Shown here: positions 19,482 through 32,668 of the stretch, one piece after another
Layout: every line of letters starts with the position of its first letter
Position numbering within the stretch: the first letter of the stretch is position 1
Sequence record: PZ445515.1
From: a phage
DNA: 64,000 nt
Strand: one strand, 5' to 3'
The notes under the pieces: model-generated
Seen by the model: the letters and a program-made list of their open reading frames with translations, nothing else
Databases searched by the model: none
What the model was told of the DNA's origin: nothing
Translations under genes and position numbers: made by a program

Positions 19482-19704
19482 ATATTCATAAATTAGGGAA
19501 CAGCGAGCCGATTACGCTGAGTGCAGAATCCCAACCGGAGCGCATTGAATAGAGTCGGTGGGTTAGTTGTAAAACTAGTACACAGGGGGCGGCAATCCCG
19601 GTTAGTGGCTAGAACGTGTAAAATGAGGCGTCTGAAACCTCTCCCCTAAACTCTTCTCTGATTTATAAATAGTGGGGTGTGGAAATCACTTATGTAGTAA
19701 CACT

Positions 19705-19776
19705 GCCGTCCTAGTATAATTGGTATTATCAAGCCGTAACTGGTGGAAGATGTAGGTTCGAATCCTACGGTCGGTA
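19705..19776 (+). ncRNA. tRNA-like element (no encoded CCA, poor D/anticodon arms)
   Basis: T-arm gtagg-TTCGAAT-cctac and 6/7 acceptor pairing, but no 3' CCA unlike all other tRNAs here. Confidence 0.3.
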
Positions 19777-20278
19777 AGAACTGGATAACTGATGCTTTTA
19801 ACATAAAAGCTTCCGAGGTTAGTTGCGCACTGCCTAAACCACGCGGTAGTTGGTTCCAGACTAACCAACCAGTCTGCTGAATAGTTTTATTACGATTTAA
19901 CTATGTCCAGGCTAAAGAAGAACTTTAGAAGGTATTCTAGGATAGTGAAGTTCTTTCTCCATATCGGAGTAGTTTTTCAAGCTATCCACAAAGTGGGAAA
20001 TGCTGACATGAGAGATGTCACTAATGGTGCACAATAGCACAGGTAATTCGCGATAACTCCTGTTGAGTAGCAGCAAAAGGTGGGAAGTCATGACCCCAAG
20101 CCTAACCGAGTCCTCAATATACCGCAGGACATAACCACTAAGTCACCCTGACTTAAACTGGAAAATAATAGACGTTACTGTATTTTGTCTTGAAATACTT
20201 AATGAGTGAGACTTATGACTCTCCCGGTATCGTCTGTATTTTTAAGAGTTTTTACGAGAGTTCTTAAAAATACTTAAA

Positions 20279-23983: not shown

Positions 23984-24058
23984 GGTTCTCAAGCTCATAT
24001 GGTATGAGCACCCGGCTCATAACCGGAAGGTACGTAGGTTCGAATCCTCGGGGAGCCA
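23984..24058 (+). tRNA. tRNA-Met/Ile2 (anticodon CAT)
   Basis: Acceptor ggttctc/gggagcc, D-stem gctc/gagc, anticodon loop CTCATAA, CCA encoded; T-stem imperfect. Confidence 0.7.
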
Positions 24059-26527: not shown

Positions 26528-26632
26528 CCAAATTCTGTGTAGAGTTAAGTAAACCGGTAGCCAACCAGCTATCATTGCTGACATCGAATTCAGTCACAGA
26601 TACCATTTTCATTAATAACTGAGGAAACAAGC

Positions 26633-27278: not shown

Positions 27279-27670
27279 TAAAATTTCAGTGCAGAACACG
27301 GAGCTAGCAATTCGGAAGTGCTGACTCATGATAAGCTGCCTATGTACTTGCGAAGCGGTCGTGTCCAAGACTCGGACTCTTGCACTGAAAACAATCAAAC
27401 ATTCTAGCGTGGTTGATGGGGAAACCAGCTTGGCGAGGGCAGAAGCTCGTTCGATTCGAGTGAAAGAATGGTTCTCGTAAGTCCGCACAAGTGATAACAG
27501 GTTCGAGTCCTGTCTAGAATGACACTATAAAGTTTACTTATTATGTAGGTTCCGATAGATCGGCGGGTCTATTCTGGCACTTAAGAGAGGTCTCGCAAAC
27601 TTCTTTGTCAGCCGTGGGGTTGGTAGCCTCCAGGTGGCCTACACAATAAGTAAATTTATTAAAAATTCAT

Positions 27671-28430: not shown

Positions 28431-28650
28431 AGGAGAAATCCTCATCATAGTTCACTAAGGTATTAGCTCGACCTAGGACTGGCTGCCAAAAAGCACGATC
28501 CCTACGATTCGGGAGAAGTTCTAGATTAGTCCACTAGATTCAGTGGCAACTGAATAGTGTATCGGGTTTGCGAGATGACGCGGTTCCTTCCGCTCGAAGC
28601 GAAGGTGCTGTAGTTACGCCGAGCTAATAGCCTTAGTAAACTAAATAATT
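28431..28650 (+). ncRNA. candidate structured non-coding RNA
   Basis: No ORF; hairpin gatgagga...tcctcatc at 5' end; 10-nt complementary pair tattagctcg/cgagctaata enclosing about 150 nt. Confidence 0.3.
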
Positions 28651-28651
28651 T

Positions 28652-28727
28652 GGGGAATGGGTCTGCATGGAGTGGACACCTCGCTTGCACCGAGGACATC
28701 AGAACGGTTCGATTCCGTTATTCTCCA
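28652..28727 (+). tRNA. tRNA-Ala (anticodon TGC)
   Basis: Acceptor ggggaat/attctcc, anticodon stem cctcg/cgagg loop CTTGCAC, T-loop TTCGATT, CCA encoded. Confidence 0.8.
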
Positions 28728-28735
28728 CCAAATAC

Positions 28736-28809
28736 GCGTGATTGATGGAATTGGCATACATACCGTCCTTAGAAGTCGGGTTTTGAGGGTTCGAATCCCT
28801 TGTCACGCA
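28736..28809 (+). tRNA. tRNA with anticodon TAG (Leu-type anticodon, short variable arm)
   Basis: Acceptor gcgtgat/gtcacgc, anticodon loop CTTAGAA, T-loop TTCGAAT, CCA encoded. Confidence 0.65.
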
Positions 28810-28924
28810 CCAAATTTGATGGTCAGAGTAAATTAAACCTACTATCTCGGTTGAGCTGTTTTAATGGGTTCGAATCCCAGCGAGGCGTAACTGCCTGGTG
28901 TGATAGAGGCATCATCTTGTTATT

Positions 28925-29012
28925 GGAAGAGCAAATCGAATTGGTGACGAAAACCGCTTGGAAAGTGGCTGACTGGTAAAACGGCTTGAGAGTTCAAATC
29001 TCTCCTCTTCCG
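28925..29012 (+). tRNA. tRNA-Ser (anticodon GGA)
   Basis: Acceptor ggaagag/ctcttcc, anticodon loop TTGGAAA, long variable arm, T-loop TTCAAAT, CCA encoded. Confidence 0.75.
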
Positions 29013-29027
29013 CCAAACAATTTATAT

Positions 29028-29119
29028 GGTAGGTCAATCCAATGGCTGGCGCTGGACTCCGACTTGAAATCGGTTGATCGTAGTGATACGGTGTAAGGGT
29101 TCGATCCCCTTACCTACCT
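29028..29119 (+). tRNA. tRNA-Ser (anticodon TGA)
   Basis: Acceptor ggtaggt/acctacc, anticodon loop CTTGAAA, long variable arm, T-loop TTCGATC, CCA encoded. Confidence 0.75.
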
Positions 29120-29488
29120 CCAAATCCTGAAGTATGCCGGAATCGGTAGACGGGGCTGCCTAAAAGGTTTATAGGGAACATCCACTCCCTGCAACATACC
29201 TCATAAAGCGGCTGAGATAAATGGTCTATCTCGTGAAGGTTCAAGTCCTTCTGCTTCTTGATACACCAATGGCTCAAAGTGTAACGGTGCTATTTGATGC
29301 GCTTAGTAAGACTTCCCCGACATGCGTTCGGGAGTAAGCTGCTAAGACTAGAGTAGAAGAGTTTCTGAGAGCCGCCACAATTGAAAATTCGTACTCGTCT
29401 TGAGCTGCGTGCAATAGGAGATAACTTGATTAGTATTCTAGAACATGCTAATTGAGGAAGGTTTCGCTAACCCTGCGAGTTTTCAATT

Positions 29489-29562
29489 GTGGCTATATCA
29501 TAATTGGTTAATGATCCTGATTGTGAATCAGGCCTATGTGGATTCGAATTCCACTAGCCACC
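29489..29562 (+). tRNA. tRNA-His (anticodon GTG)
   Basis: Acceptor gtggcta/tagccac, anticodon stem cctga/tcagg loop TTGTGAA, T-loop TTCGAAT, CCA encoded. Confidence 0.8.
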
Positions 29563-29590
29563 CCAAATTAACTTAAATAGGAAATAAAAT

Positions 29591-29785
29591 ATGGCTGATT
29601 TCTGCAAACAATGCTCCATTGATATGTGGGGTAAAGATACTGGTGATCTTTCTGGTTTGATTACAGAAGCTGAGGTCAAAGAAGGTTATGGTGCAGTTGT
29701 GATTTGCGAAGGATGCGGCGTTATTCGTGTTGATCATGAAGGCAAACGTTTGGAAGAATCTGAGCCAACAACAATTTTTCCGTAG
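29591..29785 (+). CDS. small Cys-rich (zinc-ribbon-like) protein
   Basis: 64 aa; CKQC...CEGC pairs. Confidence 0.5.
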   Translation: MADFCKQCSIDMWGKDTGDLSGLITEAEVKEGYGAVVICEGCGVIRVDHEGKRLEESEPTTIFP

Positions 29786-29797
29786 AATAAAAATTAT

Positions 29798-29870
29798 TGG
29801 GATGTAGATCAATTGGCAGATCGTCGGCCTCTGACTCCGAAGGTTCCACGTTCGATCCGTGGCATCCCAG
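29798..29870 (+). tRNA. tRNA-Gln (anticodon CTG)
   Basis: Acceptor tgggatg/catccca, anticodon loop CTCTGAC, T-loop TTCGATC, CCA encoded. Confidence 0.8.
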
Positions 29871-29879
29871 CCAAATAAT

Positions 29880-29952
29880 TGGAGAGTAGTGTAACGGTTA
29901 GCACAACGGCCTTTGACTCCGTTAATGGTAGGTTCGATTCCTCCTTCTCCAG
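29880..29952 (+). tRNA. tRNA-Gln (anticodon TTG)
   Basis: Acceptor tggagag/ttctcca, anticodon loop CTTTGAC, T-loop TTCGATT, CCA encoded. Confidence 0.8.
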
Positions 29953-29962
29953 CCAAACAATA

Positions 29963-30036
29963 AGCGGTTAAGCACACGGGTTGTGCCGCAGGCCTTCCAA
30001 GCCTCGCTGAGTAGGGTTCGATTCCCTCTAGCCGCT
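29963..30036 (+). tRNA. tRNA-Gly (anticodon TCC)
   Basis: Acceptor agcggtt/tagccgc, anticodon loop CTTCCAA, T-loop TTCGATT, CCA encoded. Confidence 0.8.
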
Positions 30037-30055
30037 CCAACTTTAAGGAAACATT

Positions 30056-30307
30056 ATGCACGTTTTTGAGTTTCGTAATAAAAGTACCGAAAAACGAGTT
30101 ATTGTTATTGGAGAAACATACCGAGCATACGAACAAACTGACGGCTCTGTTATCCTGAATGATGAGAAAGGAGGTTTTAGCTTTTATCCAGAAGAACCTT
30201 ATGAAGAGTTTCGAAAACAATTTAACCTAGACTGGAGAAAGCATTTAAACACTGTTGCTTCATCTGTAGTATTGCCAACTACCAGTACTGTACTCTCTAA
30301 TGGCTGA
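30056..30307 (+). CDS. hypothetical protein
   Basis: 83 aa ORF. Confidence 0.5.
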   Translation: MHVFEFRNKSTEKRVIVIGETYRAYEQTDGSVILNDEKGGFSFYPEEPYEEFRKQFNLDWRKHLNTVASSVVLPTTSTVLSNG

Positions 30308-30464
30308 TAACCTAAAAGTCAAGATCGATAAACAAAAGAAACGTGTAGAAGTAGAGATTGGTGAAGAACGTGTAGCCTTCACCTTTGAATTTCTACAACA
30401 AATGGCAATGGCGGTTATGACTGATAAGTCTCCTGTTATTGAAAAAGAAATCCCGTTGAAATAA
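30300..30464 (+). CDS. hypothetical small protein
   Basis: 54 aa ORF, ATG overlaps upstream stop. Confidence 0.4.
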   Translation: MADNLKVKIDKQKKRVEVEIGEERVAFTFEFLQQMAMAVMTDKSPVIEKEIPLK

Positions 30465-30472
30465 CGGGTTCT

Positions 30473-30556
30473 GCTGGGTTGGCAGAATGGTTGAATGCAC
30501 CTGATTTGTAATCAGGAGGAGTAATCCCGTTACAGGTTCGAATCCTGTGCCCAGCA
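30473..30556 (+). tRNA. tRNA with anticodon TGT (Thr-type) and 15-nt variable arm
   Basis: Acceptor gctgggt/gcccagc, anticodon stem cctga/tcagg loop TTTGTAA, T-loop TTCGAAT, CCA encoded. Confidence 0.7.
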
Positions 30557-30573
30557 CCAACTTAAGGACTATT

Positions 30574-30741
30574 ATGTTTAAATTATTAGTAGTTATCTGG
30601 TATAGTCAATCAAATAGAGCGAATACCTCCCACGTTATAGACTTTAATACTAAAAATGAAGCTGAAAAAGCATATTCTAATTTAATAGAACGTAATAAAG
30701 AATCTCGTAGTATAGTTTATGAAGTGACTAAACTTTATTAA
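30574..30741 (+). CDS. hypothetical small membrane protein
   Basis: 55 aa from ATG 30574; hydrophobic N-terminus. Confidence 0.45.
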   Translation: MFKLLVVIWYSQSNRANTSHVIDFNTKNEAEKAYSNLIERNKESRSIVYEVTKLY

Positions 30742-30748
30742 AAATTCA

Positions 30749-30778
30749 TTTGCTTTCTCTCTTATTTATTGTTATAAT
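30749..30778 (+). promoter_or_regulatory. T5-type early promoter
   Basis: TTGCTT -35, 18 bp, TATAAT -10. Confidence 0.6.
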
Positions 30779-30808
30779 ATTTATATAAATTAATGAGAGG
30801 GAAGCCAA

Positions 30809-31102
30809 ATGAAACGTTATCTTTCTGTTGTGTTCCAAACTGGTGGTCAACGCTATACCTATGAATTTCCTGGCTCTTGGAAGATCAAAGAAGGTGATCA
30901 AGTAGTAGTGTTAACACCGCGTGAGGGTTTTAAGGTAGTAACGGTTAAGCAAGTATTTCCAAAAGAGCATGAACCAGCTAAAGGCATTCGCTATAAGATG
31001 ATTCATGGTGTAGTTCGTCAAGTACCACGAGCGGAAGTCGAAATCAAAGTAGATAAAGATGGTAAACTTAAATATACCTCTTGCTTAGACGAGTTGCTAT
31101 AA
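30809..31102 (+). CDS. hypothetical protein
   Basis: 97 aa ORF. Confidence 0.55.
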   Translation: MKRYLSVVFQTGGQRYTYEFPGSWKIKEGDQVVVLTPREGFKVVTVKQVFPKEHEPAKGIRYKMIHGVVRQVPRAEVEIKVDKDGKLKYTSCLDELL

Positions 31103-31308
31103 TGAGGATTACTTTTACAGAAAAGATCATGAGTAATGGTGTTATGATCATTACCGCATGGGATGGTAATCAGTGGTGTAGTGTTTCAGGTATTAAGCCT
31201 GAAGAACAAACACTAGAAAATATCTCAAAGATTAAGCGAAGAATGGCAGAACGTGCACGACTTCCAGGTGCACCTAGAAATGGCAAACGTTCTGCTGCAA
31301 AATGTTAA
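31081..31308 (+). CDS. hypothetical protein (start 31081 or in-frame ATG 31102)
   Basis: 75 aa ORF overlapping upstream gene end. Confidence 0.45.
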   Translation: MLRRVAIMRITFTEKIMSNGVMIITAWDGNQWCSVSGIKPEEQTLENISKIKRRMAERARLPGAPRNGKRSAAKC

Positions 31309-31309
31309 T

Positions 31310-31383
31310 GCTTCGGTAGCTTAGCGATCTAAAGCACTCGGCTGATAACCGAGAGATCGGGGGTTTAAATCCCTCCCGGAGTA
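31310..31383 (+). tRNA. tRNA-Ile (anticodon GAT)
   Basis: Acceptor gcttcgg/ccggagt, anticodon stem ctcgg/ccgag loop CTGATAA, atypical T-loop TTTAAAT, CCA encoded. Confidence 0.75.
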
Positions 31384-31400
31384 CCAAATTAAGGTTATGT

Positions 31401-31559
31401 ATGGAAGATATTGATAAACTTGCAAAAATATTTGCTGAACTTTCTGATATAGAAGTCTCAGAGAACTCTAGAATAGATATGTTTATTGACCAATATAGAG
31501 AAGGACTTATCAGTAAGAAAGATCTTCTAGATCTAACCTATAAAGAATTAACTAGTTAG
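31401..31559 (+). CDS. hypothetical small protein
   Basis: 52 aa ORF; TAG stop overlaps 5' end of next tRNA. Confidence 0.4.
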   Translation: MEDIDKLAKIFAELSDIEVSENSRIDMFIDQYREGLISKKDLLDLTYKELTS

Positions 31560-31626
31560 TTGGCAGAGTGGTTATGCACCTCCTTCATACGGAGCGACTA
31601 CAGTGGTTCAAATCCACTACTAACTA
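31554..31626 (+). tRNA. tRNA-Met (anticodon CAT)
   Basis: Acceptor agttagt/actaact, anticodon loop TTCATAC, T-loop TTCAAAT, CCA encoded. Confidence 0.75.
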
Positions 31627-31666
31627 CCATTAAAAGAGCTAGAGATAGCTAACTTTAGGAGCAGCT

Positions 31667-31861
31667 ATGTTAACAATTAAAATAATGTCAGCCAAGAATG
31701 GGGAACAGATTCATACAGGCAAAAGTGTAAGCTTTAATCCTAGAAATAAAAGATTGGCTATAGTTGGAGTAGACCAAGCCATCTTTTTAAAAGAAGATGA
31801 AGTAGCATATGTCATGAACCAAACTGGTAAGACAGTTTCCGTATACTATGGAAAAGTATAA
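31667..31861 (+). CDS. hypothetical protein
   Basis: 64 aa ORF. Confidence 0.5.
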   Translation: MLTIKIMSAKNGEQIHTGKSVSFNPRNKRLAIVGVDQAIFLKEDEVAYVMNQTGKTVSVYYGKV

Positions 31862-31903
31862 AGAATAAATAGCTGAGCCAAATTCTAACATCGGGGAGAT
31901 CTA

Positions 31904-32272
31904 ATGAAAGCATATCAAAATCTTAAATCTGGCGTAATTAACCTTGTTCATGAAAATCAGATTATTCAGCTATACTCCGACAACGGTGAACTTAAACAGA
32001 AAGTTCTAGTTGAAGATCTAGAAGGTATCACACCACAATTCGATCCCGAAGCCTTCCGTGAAGTCAAAGTGGAAGTCGCCCCTCAAATCGAAGGTGGTCA
32101 GCACCTAAATGTCAATGTGTTAAGCTGTGATCAGCTTTTGGATGCGCAGAAACATCCTGAAAAATATCCTCAGTTGACCATCCGTGTCTCTGGTTACGCT
32201 GTTCGATTTAACGCACTGACTCGTGAACAACAGAACGACGTTATTAGTCGTACATTTACTCAGGCGATGTAA
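31904..32272 (+). CDS. grcA: autonomous glycyl radical cofactor (GrcA/YfiD-like)
   Basis: 122 aa; [10 protein letters not shown]...[23 protein letters not shown] matches YfiD/PFL C-terminal glycyl-radical domain. Confidence 0.8.
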
Positions 32273-32353
32273 TGGGGTTTGGGTACGATTTCTCCGAACT
32301 ACGTGAGGTAGTCGAGCAAACTCCGTTTATCTCCCAAGTTTTAGGAGAAATGT

Positions 32354-32668
32354 GTGGATCGAGCATTAAGACGCCATCACCGGCAACGTGTGAAGAACAA
32401 CCGCAAGAAGTATTGGACAGTCTTTCCACATGAAGAAAGCCCTAAGCGGTTAGGTATTATCACTACTACTCCTTGCATCTGTTCTTGTTGGATGTGCGGG
32501 AACCCTCGCAAATATTATAAGAATAGTAAAGCAGGCATGAAAATTTCGGAGATTAGGAAAATGGAAGCAATGATTATGGGCATCTCAAATGATGAATTTG
32601 ATGGCTTTGTAGGATTCGGAGAAGGAATCAGCTCAGGCTATTCCGAAGATGAACGCCCCGATCTGTAA
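32354..32668 (+). CDS. hypothetical Cys-rich protein
   Basis: 104 aa, GTG start after AGGAG; CICSCWMC cluster. Confidence 0.45.
   Translation: MDRALRRHHRQRVKNNRKKYWTVFPHEESPKRLGIITTTPCICSCWMCGNPRKYYKNSKAGMKISEIRKMEAMIMGISNDEFDGFVGFGEGISSGYSEDERPDL

What the first reader, a model, noticed from the sequence alone, without database searches (positions are those of the whole stretch)
29123..29488. Non-coding gap in the tRNA run containing an orphan T-arm-like hairpin
Between tRNA-Ser(TGA) and tRNA-His lies 365 nt with no ORF and no canonical tRNA, but with a T-arm-like hairpin gaagg-TTCAAGT-ccttc at about 29237. A similar orphan T-arm (tggg-TTCGAAT-ccca, about 28871-28887) lies between tRNA(TAG) and tRNA-Ser(GGA). 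These could be tRNA remnants, non-canonical tRNAs missed by eye, or processing signals.
Basis: seen in the sequence. Interest (0 to 1): 0.4.

Follow-up and report, generated by a model that had tools for sequence, protein, structure and literature searches.

The report
Three known T5 stable RNAs
The apparently empty 366-base gap in this T5-type phage's tRNA cluster is filled by three small stable RNAs already annotated in the phage T5 reference genome (a tRNA-shaped RNA1, RNAI and RNAIII); their existence is not new, but their function is still unknown.

Summary
Window 29123-29488 has no tRNA by default ARAGORN or Rfam and no credible ORF, and the T-arm hairpin is at 29235-29251. It is not orphan and the gap is not empty. 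The window is a T5-like phage. The T5, BF23 and DT57C records annotate this interval as three "stable RNAs with unknown functions": RNA1 (tRNA-like, ~29126-29270), RNAI (29271-29377) and RNAIII (29382-29487).

RNA1 is a complete class-II cloverleaf whose 7-nt anticodon loop is replaced by a 48-nt extension. Covariation supports it strongly: 95% of cells paired against 39-50% in slid controls, and 12 of 36 pairs compensated.

RNAI ends in an acceptor-like stem plus G-CCA.

RNAIII is the inside of a ~20-bp helix formed by the RNAI 3' end and the tRNA-His 5' end. That helix persists across five unalignable interiors in three genera. The annotated RNAIII ends give 2-nt 3' overhangs, which suggests RNase III excision; this is inferred, not shown.

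The second T-arm (28865-28879) lies in an optional, unannotated 112-nt element, most likely a tRNA remnant.

A viable T5 deletion mutant lacks all three RNAs. Verdict: already known, function open, modest interest.

The parts
29126..29270 (+). RNA1, the 'tRNA-like stable RNA with unknown functions' of T5 (gene rna1, T5s03); the cloverleaf core is 29128-29258
   Evidence: BLAST of the NC_005859 rna1 feature gives 85.5% identity over 29133-29270. ARAGORN in intron mode calls 29128-29259 a cloverleaf. Covariation on 22 distinct homologues.
29128..29134 (+). RNA1 acceptor stem, 5' strand; pairs with 29252-29258 (U1.U72 mismatch, then 6 bp)
   Evidence: 4 of 7 pairs change on both sides. The stem sequence is entirely rewritten in the Klebsiella phages yet still pairs.
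29137..29153 (+). RNA1 D arm (3-bp stem CCG/CGG; loop GAAUCGGUAGA containing the G18 G19 equivalents)
   Evidence: Invariant in 22 sequences. The T5/L005 form shares a 15-nt identity, CGGAATTGGTAGACG, with E. coli leuQ.
29155..29212 (+). RNA1 extended 'anticodon' arm: a canonical 5-bp stem (29155-29159 with 29208-29212) closing a 48-nt insert made of an A-rich internal loop, a 4-bp helix (29165-29168 with 29198-29201) and an apical 6-bp helix (29172-29177 with 29186-29191)
   Evidence: Compensatory changes in all three helices. The positions equivalent to the anticodon loop are not conserved (CUAAAAG / CGAAUAG / CUAAAGG).
29178..29185 (+). RNA1 apical loop ACAUCCAC, with flanking GA...UC
   Evidence: Unchanged in 21 of 22 distinct sequences across three genera (one A-to-G in the T5 reference), while the helix beneath it covaries. 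No complementary target in the window beyond chance.
29214..29232 (+). RNA1 long variable arm (6-bp stem, 7-nt loop), the class-II tRNA feature
   Evidence: 100% of cells paired, one compensated pair.
29235..29251 (+).
   Evidence: The stem is invariant in 22 sequences, and T54, T55, C56 and A58 equivalents are invariant.
29259..29270 (+). RNA1 3' trailer (UGAUACACCAAU); there is no CCA directly after the acceptor stem
   Evidence: Read from the sequence. The trailer varies among relatives.
29271..29377 (+). RNAI (gene rnaI, T5s02): a 107-nt stable RNA with 5' GGCUC pairing 3' GAGCC, followed by G-CCA
   Evidence: 91.6% identity to the NC_005859 feature. The first 20 nt and last 22 nt are kept while the interior exists in two versions. 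The terminal stem is compensated in a Klebsiella-type phage (GGCCC/GGGCC).
29378..29381 (+). 4-nt spacer CAAU between the RNAI CCA end and RNAIII
29382..29487 (+). RNAIII (gene rnaIII, T5s01): a 106-nt stable RNA forming the inside of the processing hairpin
   Evidence: 99.1% identity to the NC_005859 feature. 98-100% identical among the T5-type loci. Replaced by unrelated interiors of ~28, ~63 or ~134 nt in other lineages.
29374..29393 (+). 5' strand of the 20-bp processing helix (RNAI discriminator G, CCA, CAAU, then the first 12 nt of RNAIII); pairs with 29474-29493
   Evidence: MFE fold z = -4.65. Position-by-position table. Conserved in 5 cargo types.
29474..29493 (+). 3' strand of the processing helix (last 14 nt of RNAIII plus the first 5-6 nt of tRNA-His)
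29488..29565 (+). tRNA-His(GUG); its 5' acceptor strand is sequestered in the precursor helix
   Evidence: 100% identity to T5.
28813..28924 (+). Unannotated 112-nt element between tRNA-Leu(UAG) and tRNA-Ser(GGA), holding the second T-arm-like hairpin at 28865-28879; a probable tRNA remnant
   Evidence: ARAGORN calls a degenerate cloverleaf (28805-28889) only at a 60-70% threshold. Absent in L073 and L009; the T5 reference has hegC at this site. No feature is annotated here in BF23 or DT57C. The fold is no better than shuffles (z = -0.11).
28925..29122 (+). tRNA-Ser(GGA) 28925-29015 and tRNA-Ser(UGA) 29028-29122, which bound the two gaps
   Evidence: Annotated in LR597659, NC_005859, BF23 and DT57C. 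Sub-threshold in Rfam. ARAGORN finds them only at relaxed thresholds.

Best explanation
The gap is three consecutive non-coding RNA genes of the T5 tRNA operon, already known as RNA1, RNAI and RNAIII. They are transcribed with the flanking tRNAs as one array (Ala-Leu-[112 nt]-Ser-Ser-RNA1-RNAI-RNAIII-His) and cut out by the host tRNA-processing machinery. RNA1 derives from a class-II tRNA with tRNA-Leu-like D and T loops. It keeps the acceptor stem, D arm, variable arm and T arm, and so probably the L-shaped elbow, but its anticodon loop is replaced by a conserved 48-nt extension capped by a near-invariant ACAUCCAC loop. It is therefore a non-decoding tRNA mimic, most likely working by binding a tRNA-recognising protein. 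RNAI is a CCA-ended RNA whose 5' end would be made by RNase P. RNAIII is the interior of a ~20-bp helix built from the RNAI 3' end and the tRNA-His 5' end. I infer that RNase III makes a staggered double cut in that helix. This would release RNAIII, leave RNAI with a 4-nt tail to be trimmed back to CCA, and free the tRNA-His 5' strand to fold. What is shown: identity with the annotated T5 RNAs, the structures, and their conservation. What is inferred: the nucleases involved (about 0.55 for RNase III) and any trans-acting function of RNA1 (about 0.5).
For: Identity: the NC_005859 misc_RNA features rna1, rnaI and rnaIII map to 29133-29270, 29271-29377 and 29382-29487 at 85.5%, 91.6% and 99.1% identity. 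The same features are annotated in BF23, AY692264 and DT57C. RNA1 structure: ARAGORN in intron mode calls a full cloverleaf at its default threshold, the only such call in the 64 kb. On 22 distinct homologues, 95.1% of cells pair against 39-50% when partners are slid; 12 of 36 pairs change on both sides against 1-3 in the slid controls; the covariation score is 0.317 against 0.087 or less; 0 of 500 shuffles reach it. RNAalifold independently recovers the arms. The U8, A14, G18, G19, T54, T55, C56 and A58 equivalents are invariant. RNA1's D loop and T loop match E. coli tRNA-Leu, and the best non-self hit of the RNA1 covariance model in the window is the phage tRNA-Leu(UAA) (36.3 bits). RNA1 occurs in Tequintavirus, Epseptimavirus and Sugarlandvirus, in the last of these ~2 kb from tRNA-His, so it is an independent module. 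Processing helix: 20 bp, z = -4.65. It is retained as 20, 20, 14+4, 12+7 and 18-19 bp around five unalignable interiors, with the flanks covarying (GCCACAAUU/AAUUGUGGC against CCAAAUUU/AAAUUUGG). The annotated RNAIII ends sit on opposite strands with 2-nt 3' overhangs, which is the in vivo RNase III signature (PMC6212723). There is a precedent for RNase III in phage tRNA-cluster processing: McClain 1979, cited in PMC4810235.
Against: No function is demonstrated; the databases say 'unknown functions'. T5 mutant T5-123 (deletion 29191-32442), which spans all three RNAs in either T5 coordinate system, is viable and described as non-essential. Cloned fragments of that deletion other than the Pro-fMet-Lys-Val fragment did not rescue infection of PARIS-carrying cells (PMC11464382). 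DT57C naturally lacks RNA1. The two base pairs between the proposed RNase III cuts are A-U and U-A, whereas at least one G-C pair is usual in vivo. The RNAIII ends could equally come from RNase P at tRNA-His plus RNase E downstream of the CCA. RNAI is not thermodynamically exceptional (z = -0.3 to -1.3). RNAIII's interior shows no compensatory changes and is replaced wholesale in other lineages, so its sequence may be a passenger. I took the mature ends from database annotation and could not read the primary papers.
Confidence: 0.85

Rival explanations
1. The three RNAs are functionless by-products: decayed tRNA genes and spacer hairpins that persist only because they carry the RNase P, RNase III or RNase E sites needed to separate the neighbouring real tRNAs, and that accumulate because they are tightly folded.
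For: They are dispensable in T5-123. RNA1 is missing in DT57C. The RNAIII interior is swapped for unrelated sequences of 28-134 nt and only the basal stem is kept. The RNAI interior also exists in two versions. The T4 analogues RNAC and RNAD still have no known role (PMC3014915).
Against: RNA1's 48-nt extension, which is irrelevant to RNase P recognition, keeps three helices through compensatory changes and a near-invariant 8-nt apical loop across three genera. RNA1 is retained in Sugarlandvirus in a different genomic context. RNAI keeps 42 terminal nucleotides nearly unchanged, far more than a 5-bp stem requires.
Confidence: 0.3
2. The RNAIII ends are produced by RNase P (cutting 5' of tRNA-His) and RNase E (cutting in the AU-rich CAAU/U just downstream of the RNAI CCA). 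On this reading the long helix only protects the excised piece from exonucleases.
For: In E. coli, polycistronic tRNA transcripts are separated by RNase E 1-3 nt after the CCA and by RNase P (PMC2190699 abstract). The cut lies in an A/U-rich sequence. There is no G-C pair between the proposed RNase III cuts.
Against: Both cut sites lie inside an uninterrupted 20-bp duplex, which is a poor substrate for the single-strand-specific RNase E and hides the tRNA-His acceptor strand from RNase P. The exact 2-nt 3' stagger would then be coincidence. A helix of RNase III length is conserved around five different interiors.
Confidence: 0.3
3. RNA1 is a genuine decoding tRNA (ARAGORN's 'tRNA-Phe(AAA)') interrupted by a 41-nt intron that is spliced out.
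For: ARAGORN in intron mode calls it at the default threshold with a canonical 5-bp anticodon stem.
Against: The would-be anticodon loop is not conserved (CUAAAAG, CGAAUAG, CCAAUAG, CUAAAGG; U33 is lost in T5), whereas the 'intron' is the conserved and covarying part. There is a U1.U72 mismatch and no encoded CCA. The insert is far too small for a group I intron, and from general knowledge I know of no pathway in E. coli that splices short introns of this kind. The T5 curators call it tRNA-like, not a tRNA.
Confidence: 0.03
4. The gap encodes small proteins, as several GenBank records annotate ('hypothetical protein' x2-4 over this interval).
For: Automated annotations in PV577657, OR515477 and others place 29-55-aa ORFs here. 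Mechanical ORFs exist.
Against: All are short ORFs, most with TTG starts, lying antisense to or overlapping tRNA-like RNAs. The substitutions are compensatory for RNA helices rather than patterned by codon position. The manually curated records (T5, BF23, DT57C) annotate RNAs here.
Confidence: 0.02

Closest known systems
Phage T5 / BF23 stable RNAs RNA1, RNAI and RNAIII (NC_005859 features T5s03, T5s02, T5s01; NC_042564; KM979354)
   Same: Same genes: same order, same position between tRNA-Ser1(UGA) and tRNA-His, and 85.5%, 91.6% and 99.1% identity.
   Different: This phage lacks ORF T5.063 between tRNA-Ser1 and RNA1, so RNA1 starts 5 nt after the tRNA. Its RNA1 allele carries compensatory acceptor-stem and extension changes relative to T5.
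Phage T4 RNAC and RNAD (species 1 and 2 RNAs) of the T4 tRNA cluster
   Same: Small stable RNAs co-located with phage tRNA genes, with biological roles unknown (PMC3014915; PMC9697503). RNase III has been implicated in T4 tRNA synthesis (McClain 1979, cited in PMC4810235).
   Different: I did not test sequence or structural homology. T4 RNAC/RNAD are described as late RNAs, whereas the T5 tRNA region is classed with the early genes (PMC10644984).
Class-II bacterial tRNA, especially tRNA-Leu
   Same: 7-position acceptor stem, 3-bp D stem with the GGAAUYGGUAGAC loop, 5-bp anticodon stem, long variable arm, and a T arm with the GGUUCAAGUCC loop. It shares 15-nt and 11-nt identities with E. coli leuQ. 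The best covariance-model cross-hit is T5 tRNA-Leu(UAA).
   Different: A 48-nt structured insert replaces the 7-nt anticodon loop. There is no conserved anticodon or U33, a U1.U72 mismatch, and no encoded CCA. It scores below every Rfam tRNA threshold.
RNase III processing stems of E. coli rRNA operons and phage transcripts
   Same: A long intramolecular helix (~20 bp) formed by sequences flanking the excised RNA. The ends lie on opposite strands with 2-nt 3' overhangs (rule from PMC6212723).
   Different: Here the helix is built from the 3' CCA end of one small RNA and the 5' acceptor strand of a tRNA, and the excised piece is itself the 'stable RNA'. The pairs between the cuts are A-U and U-A. 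Cleavage by RNase III has not been tested.
tmRNA tRNA-like domain
   Same: A tRNA-shaped acceptor/T-arm module attached to a non-anticodon extension.
   Different: ARAGORN's tmRNA mode finds nothing in 28600-29600 and Rfam gives only a 15-nt T-loop match at 28865-28879. RNA1 has a true D arm and anticodon stem, no pseudoknots, no tag reading frame and no CCA.

Membership tests
T5-group stable RNAs RNA1 / RNAI / RNAIII | Sequence homology to the annotated misc_RNA features of NC_005859 | tested here: met
   85.5%, 91.6% and 99.1% identity, full length.
T5-group stable RNAs RNA1 / RNAI / RNAIII | Synteny: the order tRNA-Ser1(UGA) - RNA1 - RNAI - RNAIII - tRNA-His on the tRNA strand | tested here: met
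T5-group stable RNAs RNA1 / RNAI / RNAIII | Accumulation as discrete stable RNA species in infected cells | not testable with these tools
   Rests on the database notes ('stable RNA'); the primary papers are not in the held library.
Canonical tRNA (Rfam RF00005 / default ARAGORN) | Score above the family threshold | tested here: not met
   No hit in 29123-29488 at gathering score or at E<=10. Default ARAGORN finds nothing.
Canonical tRNA (Rfam RF00005 / default ARAGORN) | Cloverleaf with conserved tertiary-interaction nucleotides (U8, A14, G18, G19, T54, Psi55, C56, A58) | tested here: met
   RNA1 only: the cloverleaf is supported by covariation and these positions are invariant.
Canonical tRNA (Rfam RF00005 / default ARAGORN) | 7-nt anticodon loop with U33 and a conserved anticodon | tested here: not met
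   The loop is replaced by 48 nt, and the flanking positions vary among relatives.
Canonical tRNA (Rfam RF00005 / default ARAGORN) | 3' CCA, encoded or added, and aminoacylation | not testable with these tools
   RNA1 has no CCA after the acceptor stem (sequence). Post-transcriptional addition cannot be assessed.
Intron-containing tRNA | After removing the insert, a conserved functional anticodon loop remains and the insert evolves faster than the exons | tested here: not met
   The reverse is seen: the insert is conserved and covaries while the 'anticodon' varies.
tmRNA | tRNA-like domain plus a tag reading frame and pseudoknots | tested here: not met
   ARAGORN -m finds nothing in 28600-29600. 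Rfam tmRNA scores 10.9 bits against a gathering score of 47, and at another site.
RNase III substrate (RNAI-RNAIII-tRNA-His precursor helix) | Intramolecular helix of about two turns | tested here: met
   20 uninterrupted bp, conserved around five interiors.
RNase III substrate (RNAI-RNAIII-tRNA-His precursor helix) | Product ends staggered with 2-nt 3' overhangs | tested here: met
   The annotated ends 29382 and 29487 on the helix. The ends come from annotation and were not measured here.
RNase III substrate (RNAI-RNAIII-tRNA-His precursor helix) | At least one G-C pair between the two cut positions (usual in vivo) | tested here: not met
   The pairs are A29380-U29487 and U29381-A29486 (rule).
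RNase III substrate (RNAI-RNAIII-tRNA-His precursor helix) | Cleavage depends on rnc | not testable with these tools
   An experiment is needed.
RNase P substrate (RNAI 5' end) | Terminal helix followed by a discriminator base and CCA | tested here: met
   GGCUC...GAGCC-G-CCA, compensated to GGCCC...GGGCC-A-CCA in L033. Cleavage itself was not tested.

The most novel reading that the evidence does not exclude
RNA1 is a functional, non-decoding tRNA mimic. It would be a class-II tRNA scaffold that presents a conserved 48-nt arm with a near-invariant ACAUCCAC loop to a host or phage tRNA-binding protein, for example as a decoy or modulator in the contest between T5 tRNAs and tRNA-targeting host defences. 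In the same reading, the RNAI-hairpin-tRNA-His unit is an RNase III-gated maturation module with a swappable cargo slot. Neither idea appears in the literature I could search.
Probability: 0.35. Interest if true: 0.55.

Novelty: already known. Interest (0 to 1): 0.25.

Why it matters
The existence of these RNAs is not new. They are annotated in the T5, BF23 and DT57C records, although they have no Rfam family and most modern T5-like genome records either leave the interval blank or cover it with spurious small ORFs. The open question is what they do, as for T4's RNAC and RNAD. T5 tRNAs are now known to neutralise tRNA-cleaving defences (PARIS, retron Eco7, anticodon nucleases), so a conserved, non-decoding tRNA mimic in the same operon is a reasonable candidate for a related role. 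The structural model, the conserved loop and the proposed RNase III module give specific, cheap experiments. A practical benefit is that covariance models for RNA1, RNAI and the processing stem would improve annotation of roughly 500 Demerecviridae genomes.

Tried and rejected
- Default ARAGORN and Rfam (gathering score and E<=10) find nothing in the gap, so there are no ordinary missed tRNAs.
- tmRNA: ARAGORN -m on 28600-29600 finds nothing.
- Intron-containing tRNA-Phe(AAA): rejected because the anticodon loop is not conserved while the 'intron' is.
- Small proteins: only short ORFs, mostly TTG-initiated or antisense.
- Internal promoter or terminator: none convincing. The two 'terminator-like' hits are the RNA1 T arm and an RNAIII internal hairpin.
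- BLAST of de-inserted RNA1 against 5,426 E. coli genomes gave no match, because the query was too short for that database size. I compared it directly with leuQ instead. Plain identity does not separate Leu from Ser ancestry.
- The covariance model of RNA1 found no homologue in 35 distant phage loci that share the neighbouring small ORF.
- An antisense target for the RNA1 apical loop in the window: 3 hits against 3.6 expected, one of which is the locus itself.
- The RNAIII interior shows no compensatory changes, and RNAI folds are not better than shuffles. I did not resolve an internal RNAI structure.
- The second T-arm element (28813-28924) folds no better than shuffles (z = -0.11), is only as conserved as its flanks, and is absent in some relatives. 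I treated it as a remnant.
- Literature searches for the primary descriptions of these RNAs found nothing in the held library, and the T4 genome review is not held.
Full report
**What the window is.** The 701 bases around the finding are 100% identical to Escherichia phage T5_ev212 and EC148, and 450 phage records match, nearly all T5-like Demerecviridae. All tRNA genes are on the + strand.

**Checking the observation.**
- Window 29123-29488 lies between tRNA-Ser(UGA) (29028-29122) and tRNA-His (29488/9-29565).
- Default ARAGORN, Rfam at gathering score and Rfam at E<=10 find no RNA family in it.
- The longest ORF is a mechanical 55-aa TTG ORF on the opposite strand.
- The hairpin GAAGG-TTCAAGT-CCTTC is at 29235-29251.
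- T-arm-like hairpins (5-bp stem, TTCRANY loop) occur 25 times on the + strand and never on the - strand, against 1.36 expected in shuffles. Outside called tRNAs they occur only in RNA2 (twice), at 29240, and once by chance inside a 232-aa ORF.
- The second hairpin is at 28865-28879, not 28871-28887, and has a 4-bp stem.

**What is already annotated there.** Most records leave the interval blank or place small 'hypothetical proteins' on it. The manually curated T5 RefSeq record NC_005859 annotates, between tRNA-Ser1(UGA) and tRNA-His, three misc_RNA genes:
- rna1: 'tRNA-like stable RNA with unknown functions', 144 nt.
- rnaI: 'stable RNA with unknown functions', 107 nt.
- rnaIII: the same note, 106 nt.

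The same features are annotated in BF23, AY692264 and DT57C. BLAST maps them onto the window as follows.

| RNA | Window coordinates | Identity to T5 |
|---|---|---|
| RNA1 | ~29126-29270 | 85.5% |
| RNAI | 29271-29377 | 91.6% |
| RNAIII | 29382-29487 | 99.1% |

tRNA-His follows immediately. The three genes plus a 4-nt spacer tile the whole gap. This phage differs from the T5 reference in lacking ORF T5.063 (between Ser1 and RNA1) and the homing endonuclease genes hegC and hegD.

**RNA1.**
It is the only such call in the 64 kb.
- I collected 22 distinct homologues from Tequintavirus, Epseptimavirus (phiR2-01, S133, EscoHU1, Ob_P) and Klebsiella Sugarlandvirus phages.
- I tested a cloverleaf with a 7-position acceptor stem, 3-bp D stem, 5-bp anticodon stem, a two-helix extension, a 6-bp variable arm and a 5-bp T stem:

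| Measure | Proposed structure | Controls |
|---|---|---|
| Cells forming a standard pair | 95.1% | 39-50% when 3' partners are slid |
| Pairs changed on both sides | 12 of 36 | 1-3 when slid |
| Covariation score | 0.317 | 0.087 or less when slid; reached by 0 of 500 shuffles |

- RNAalifold recovers the same arms.
- The acceptor stem is completely rewritten in the Klebsiella phages and still pairs.
- The nucleotides that build the tRNA elbow (U8, A14, G18, G19, T54, T55, C56, A58 equivalents) are invariant. The apical loop ACAUCCAC of the extension is unchanged in 21 of the 22 sequences, with a single A-to-G change in the T5 reference.
- The positions that would be the anticodon loop vary (CUAAAAG, CGAAUAG, CCAAUAG, CUAAAGG), position 1-72 is U.U, and no CCA follows the acceptor stem.
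- So this is not a decoding tRNA with an intron. It is a tRNA-derived RNA in which the insert is the selected part.
- The D loop (CGGAAUUGGUAGACG in the T5 allele) and the T loop (GGUUCAAGUCC) are identical to E. coli tRNA-Leu(CAG). The RNA1 covariance model's best non-self hit in the window is the phage tRNA-Leu(UAA), at 36.3 bits against 19.7 or less for other tRNAs. Plain identity is about as high to tRNA-Ser(GGA), so 'class-II tRNA with Leu-like loops' is as far as the data go.
- The model found no RNA1 in 35 more distant phage loci.
- In Sugarlandvirus, RNA1 sits about 2 kb from tRNA-His, after an Ile-Met-Val block. DT57C has lost it. RNA1 is therefore an independent, optional module.

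**RNAI.**
- Its ends form GGCUC...GAGCC followed by G-CCA, an acceptor-like terminus with encoded CCA.
- Across lineages the first 20 and last 22 nucleotides are nearly invariant, while the interior exists in two unrelated versions: 107 nt in T5-type and 100 nt in Epseptimavirus-type. Each has a central hairpin that covaries within its type.
- A Klebsiella-type contig (L033) has a third version with a compensated terminal stem (GGCCC...GGGCC-A-CCA).
- Its fold is not thermodynamically exceptional, and I did not resolve its internal structure.

**RNAIII and the processing helix.**
- RNAIII alone folds with a 12-bp terminal stem (z = -2.9). With 17 more nucleotides on the 5' side and 13 on the 3' side (window 29365-29500), the stem becomes 20 uninterrupted base pairs running from the RNAI discriminator G and CCA (29374-29377) to the fifth base of tRNA-His (29493), with z = -4.65.
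- Upstream of tRNA-His the relatives carry at least five unalignable interiors. The basal helix is present in every one:

| Interior type | Length | Found in | Basal helix |
|---|---|---|---|
| A | 106 nt | T5 and this window | 20 bp |
| B | ~63 nt | L023, phiR2-01, S133, Ob_P | 20 bp |
| C | ~28 nt | L009 | 14+4 bp |
| D | ~134 nt | L018 | 12+7 bp |
| Klebsiella-type | ~135 nt | L033 | 18-19 bp |

- Where the tRNA-His 5' end differs, in the Klebsiella-type phage, the partner strand differs to match (CCAAAUUU/AAAUUUGG against GCCACAAUU/AAUUGUGGC).
- The annotated RNAIII ends fall on opposite strands of this helix. U29382 pairs with A29485, so the 3' end at 29487 overhangs by two nucleotides, and the complementary product has the same overhang.
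- A double cut in an intramolecular stem leaving 2-nt 3' overhangs is the established in vivo pattern of E. coli RNase III (PMC6212723). RNase III has been implicated in T4 tRNA synthesis (McClain 1979, cited in PMC4810235).
- I therefore infer that RNAIII is the RNase III-excised interior of a maturation helix that separates RNAI from tRNA-His.
- Caveats: the pairs between the cuts are A-U and U-A rather than including a G-C pair; the ends come from annotation; RNase E plus RNase P could give the same ends.
- RNAIII's interior is 98-100% identical among the T5-type loci but shows no compensatory change and is replaced in other lineages. Its sequence may be cargo rather than the selected element.

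**The second T-arm.**
- The 112 nt between tRNA-Leu(UAG) and tRNA-Ser(GGA) (28813-28924) are annotated in no record, including BF23 and DT57C.
- ARAGORN calls a degenerate cloverleaf (28805-28889, borrowing the tRNA-Leu 3' end as its 5' acceptor strand) only at 60-70% thresholds.
- The element folds no better than shuffles (z = -0.11).
- It is 96-99% conserved, but so are its flanks.
- It is absent in Ob_P and L009, where the two tRNAs are 11-12 nt apart. In the T5 reference the site holds hegC.
- A decayed tRNA remnant at a recombination-prone site is the best reading, held with modest confidence.

**Functional context.**
[quoted passage not shown] T5-123 (deletion 29191-32442) removes RNA1, RNAI, RNAIII and tRNA-His in either T5 coordinate system.
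- Only the Pro-fMet-Lys-Val fragment rescued infection of PARIS-carrying cells; 'other fragments had no effect' (PMC11464382).
- The RNAs are thus dispensable in the laboratory and are not the PARIS suppressor.
- T4's analogous RNAC and RNAD remain of unknown function (PMC3014915; PMC9697503).
- I found no paper in the held library that discusses the T5 RNAs.

**Verdict.** The finding is real and is already explained at the level of identity: three known T5 stable RNA genes that automated tRNA and RNA-family tools miss. What this analysis adds is:
- a covariation-supported structure for RNA1 as a non-decoding class-II tRNA mimic;
- the modular distribution of the three RNAs across three genera;
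- the inference that RNAIII is the excised interior of a conserved, RNase III-type maturation helix linking RNAI to tRNA-His.

Function remains unknown. Interest is modest.

Noticed in passing
window 28925-29015, 29028-29122 and 29964-30039: tRNA-Ser(GGA), tRNA-Ser(UGA) and tRNA-Gly(UCC) are annotated in T5_ev212 and T5, but default ARAGORN and Rfam at gathering score miss all three. The two Ser genes appear only as sub-threshold tRNA-Sec hits. AY587007 flags both as pseudogenes, while the NC_005859 note says the UGA one can be converted into an effective amber suppressor.
   Followed up: partly
window 19649-20278, 26533-26605, 27400-27524, 27543-27645, 28461-28632: Five more 'stable RNAs' annotated in T5 map into the window: rnaX, rna3, rna2, rnaIV and rna2H, at 91-99% identity. 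RNA2 contains two T-arm-like hairpins (27450, 27502) and an 8-bp acceptor-like stem. None has an Rfam family.
   Followed up: partly
window 28633-29132 compared with NC_005859 30651-31800: The block from tRNA-Ala through tRNA-Ser1 is mosaic. T5's annotated tRNA-Ala, tRNA-Leu and tRNA-Ser2 features give no BLAST hit to the window at E<=1e-3, while the flanking rna2H and RNAIII are 98-99% identical. T5 carries hegC, T5.063 and hegD here and the window lacks them. This is consistent with sequence replacement linked to homing endonucleases.
   Followed up: partly
L018 1955-2075; L033 886-1017: Some relatives carry extra non-coding inserts in the same array: ~115 nt between RNA1 and RNAI in L018, and ~130 nt of structured sequence upstream of RNAI in the Klebsiella-type contig. 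These may be further uncharacterised small RNAs.
   Followed up: no
GenBank records PV577657, PV577658, OR515477, PP407513, MT080103 and others, over window 28813-29488: Automated pipelines annotate 1-4 short 'hypothetical proteins', mostly antisense, across RNA1, RNAI and RNAIII and across the 112-nt element. These are very probably artefacts.
   Followed up: partly
window 23984-24058 and 19705-19776: Rfam calls two tRNAs (40.3 and 35.5 bits) that ARAGORN does not list. The first, going by gene order, corresponds to the tRNA annotated next to tRNA-Ser(GCU) in T5 (T5t23, Ile2 CAU). The second lies inside rnaX.
   Followed up: no
window 29488-29489: The curated records start tRNA-His one base earlier (U29488) than ARAGORN does (G29489). 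The -1 position would then be U opposite C73, rather than the G-1 typical of bacterial tRNA-His. This base is also exactly where the proposed RNase III cut falls.
   Followed up: no
window 29591-29785: The small ORF just downstream of tRNA-His (64 aa, homologous to T5.062) has relatives at 43-69% identity in about 35 otherwise distant viral contigs that lack RNA1. It is a widely distributed small phage protein of unknown function.
   Followed up: no
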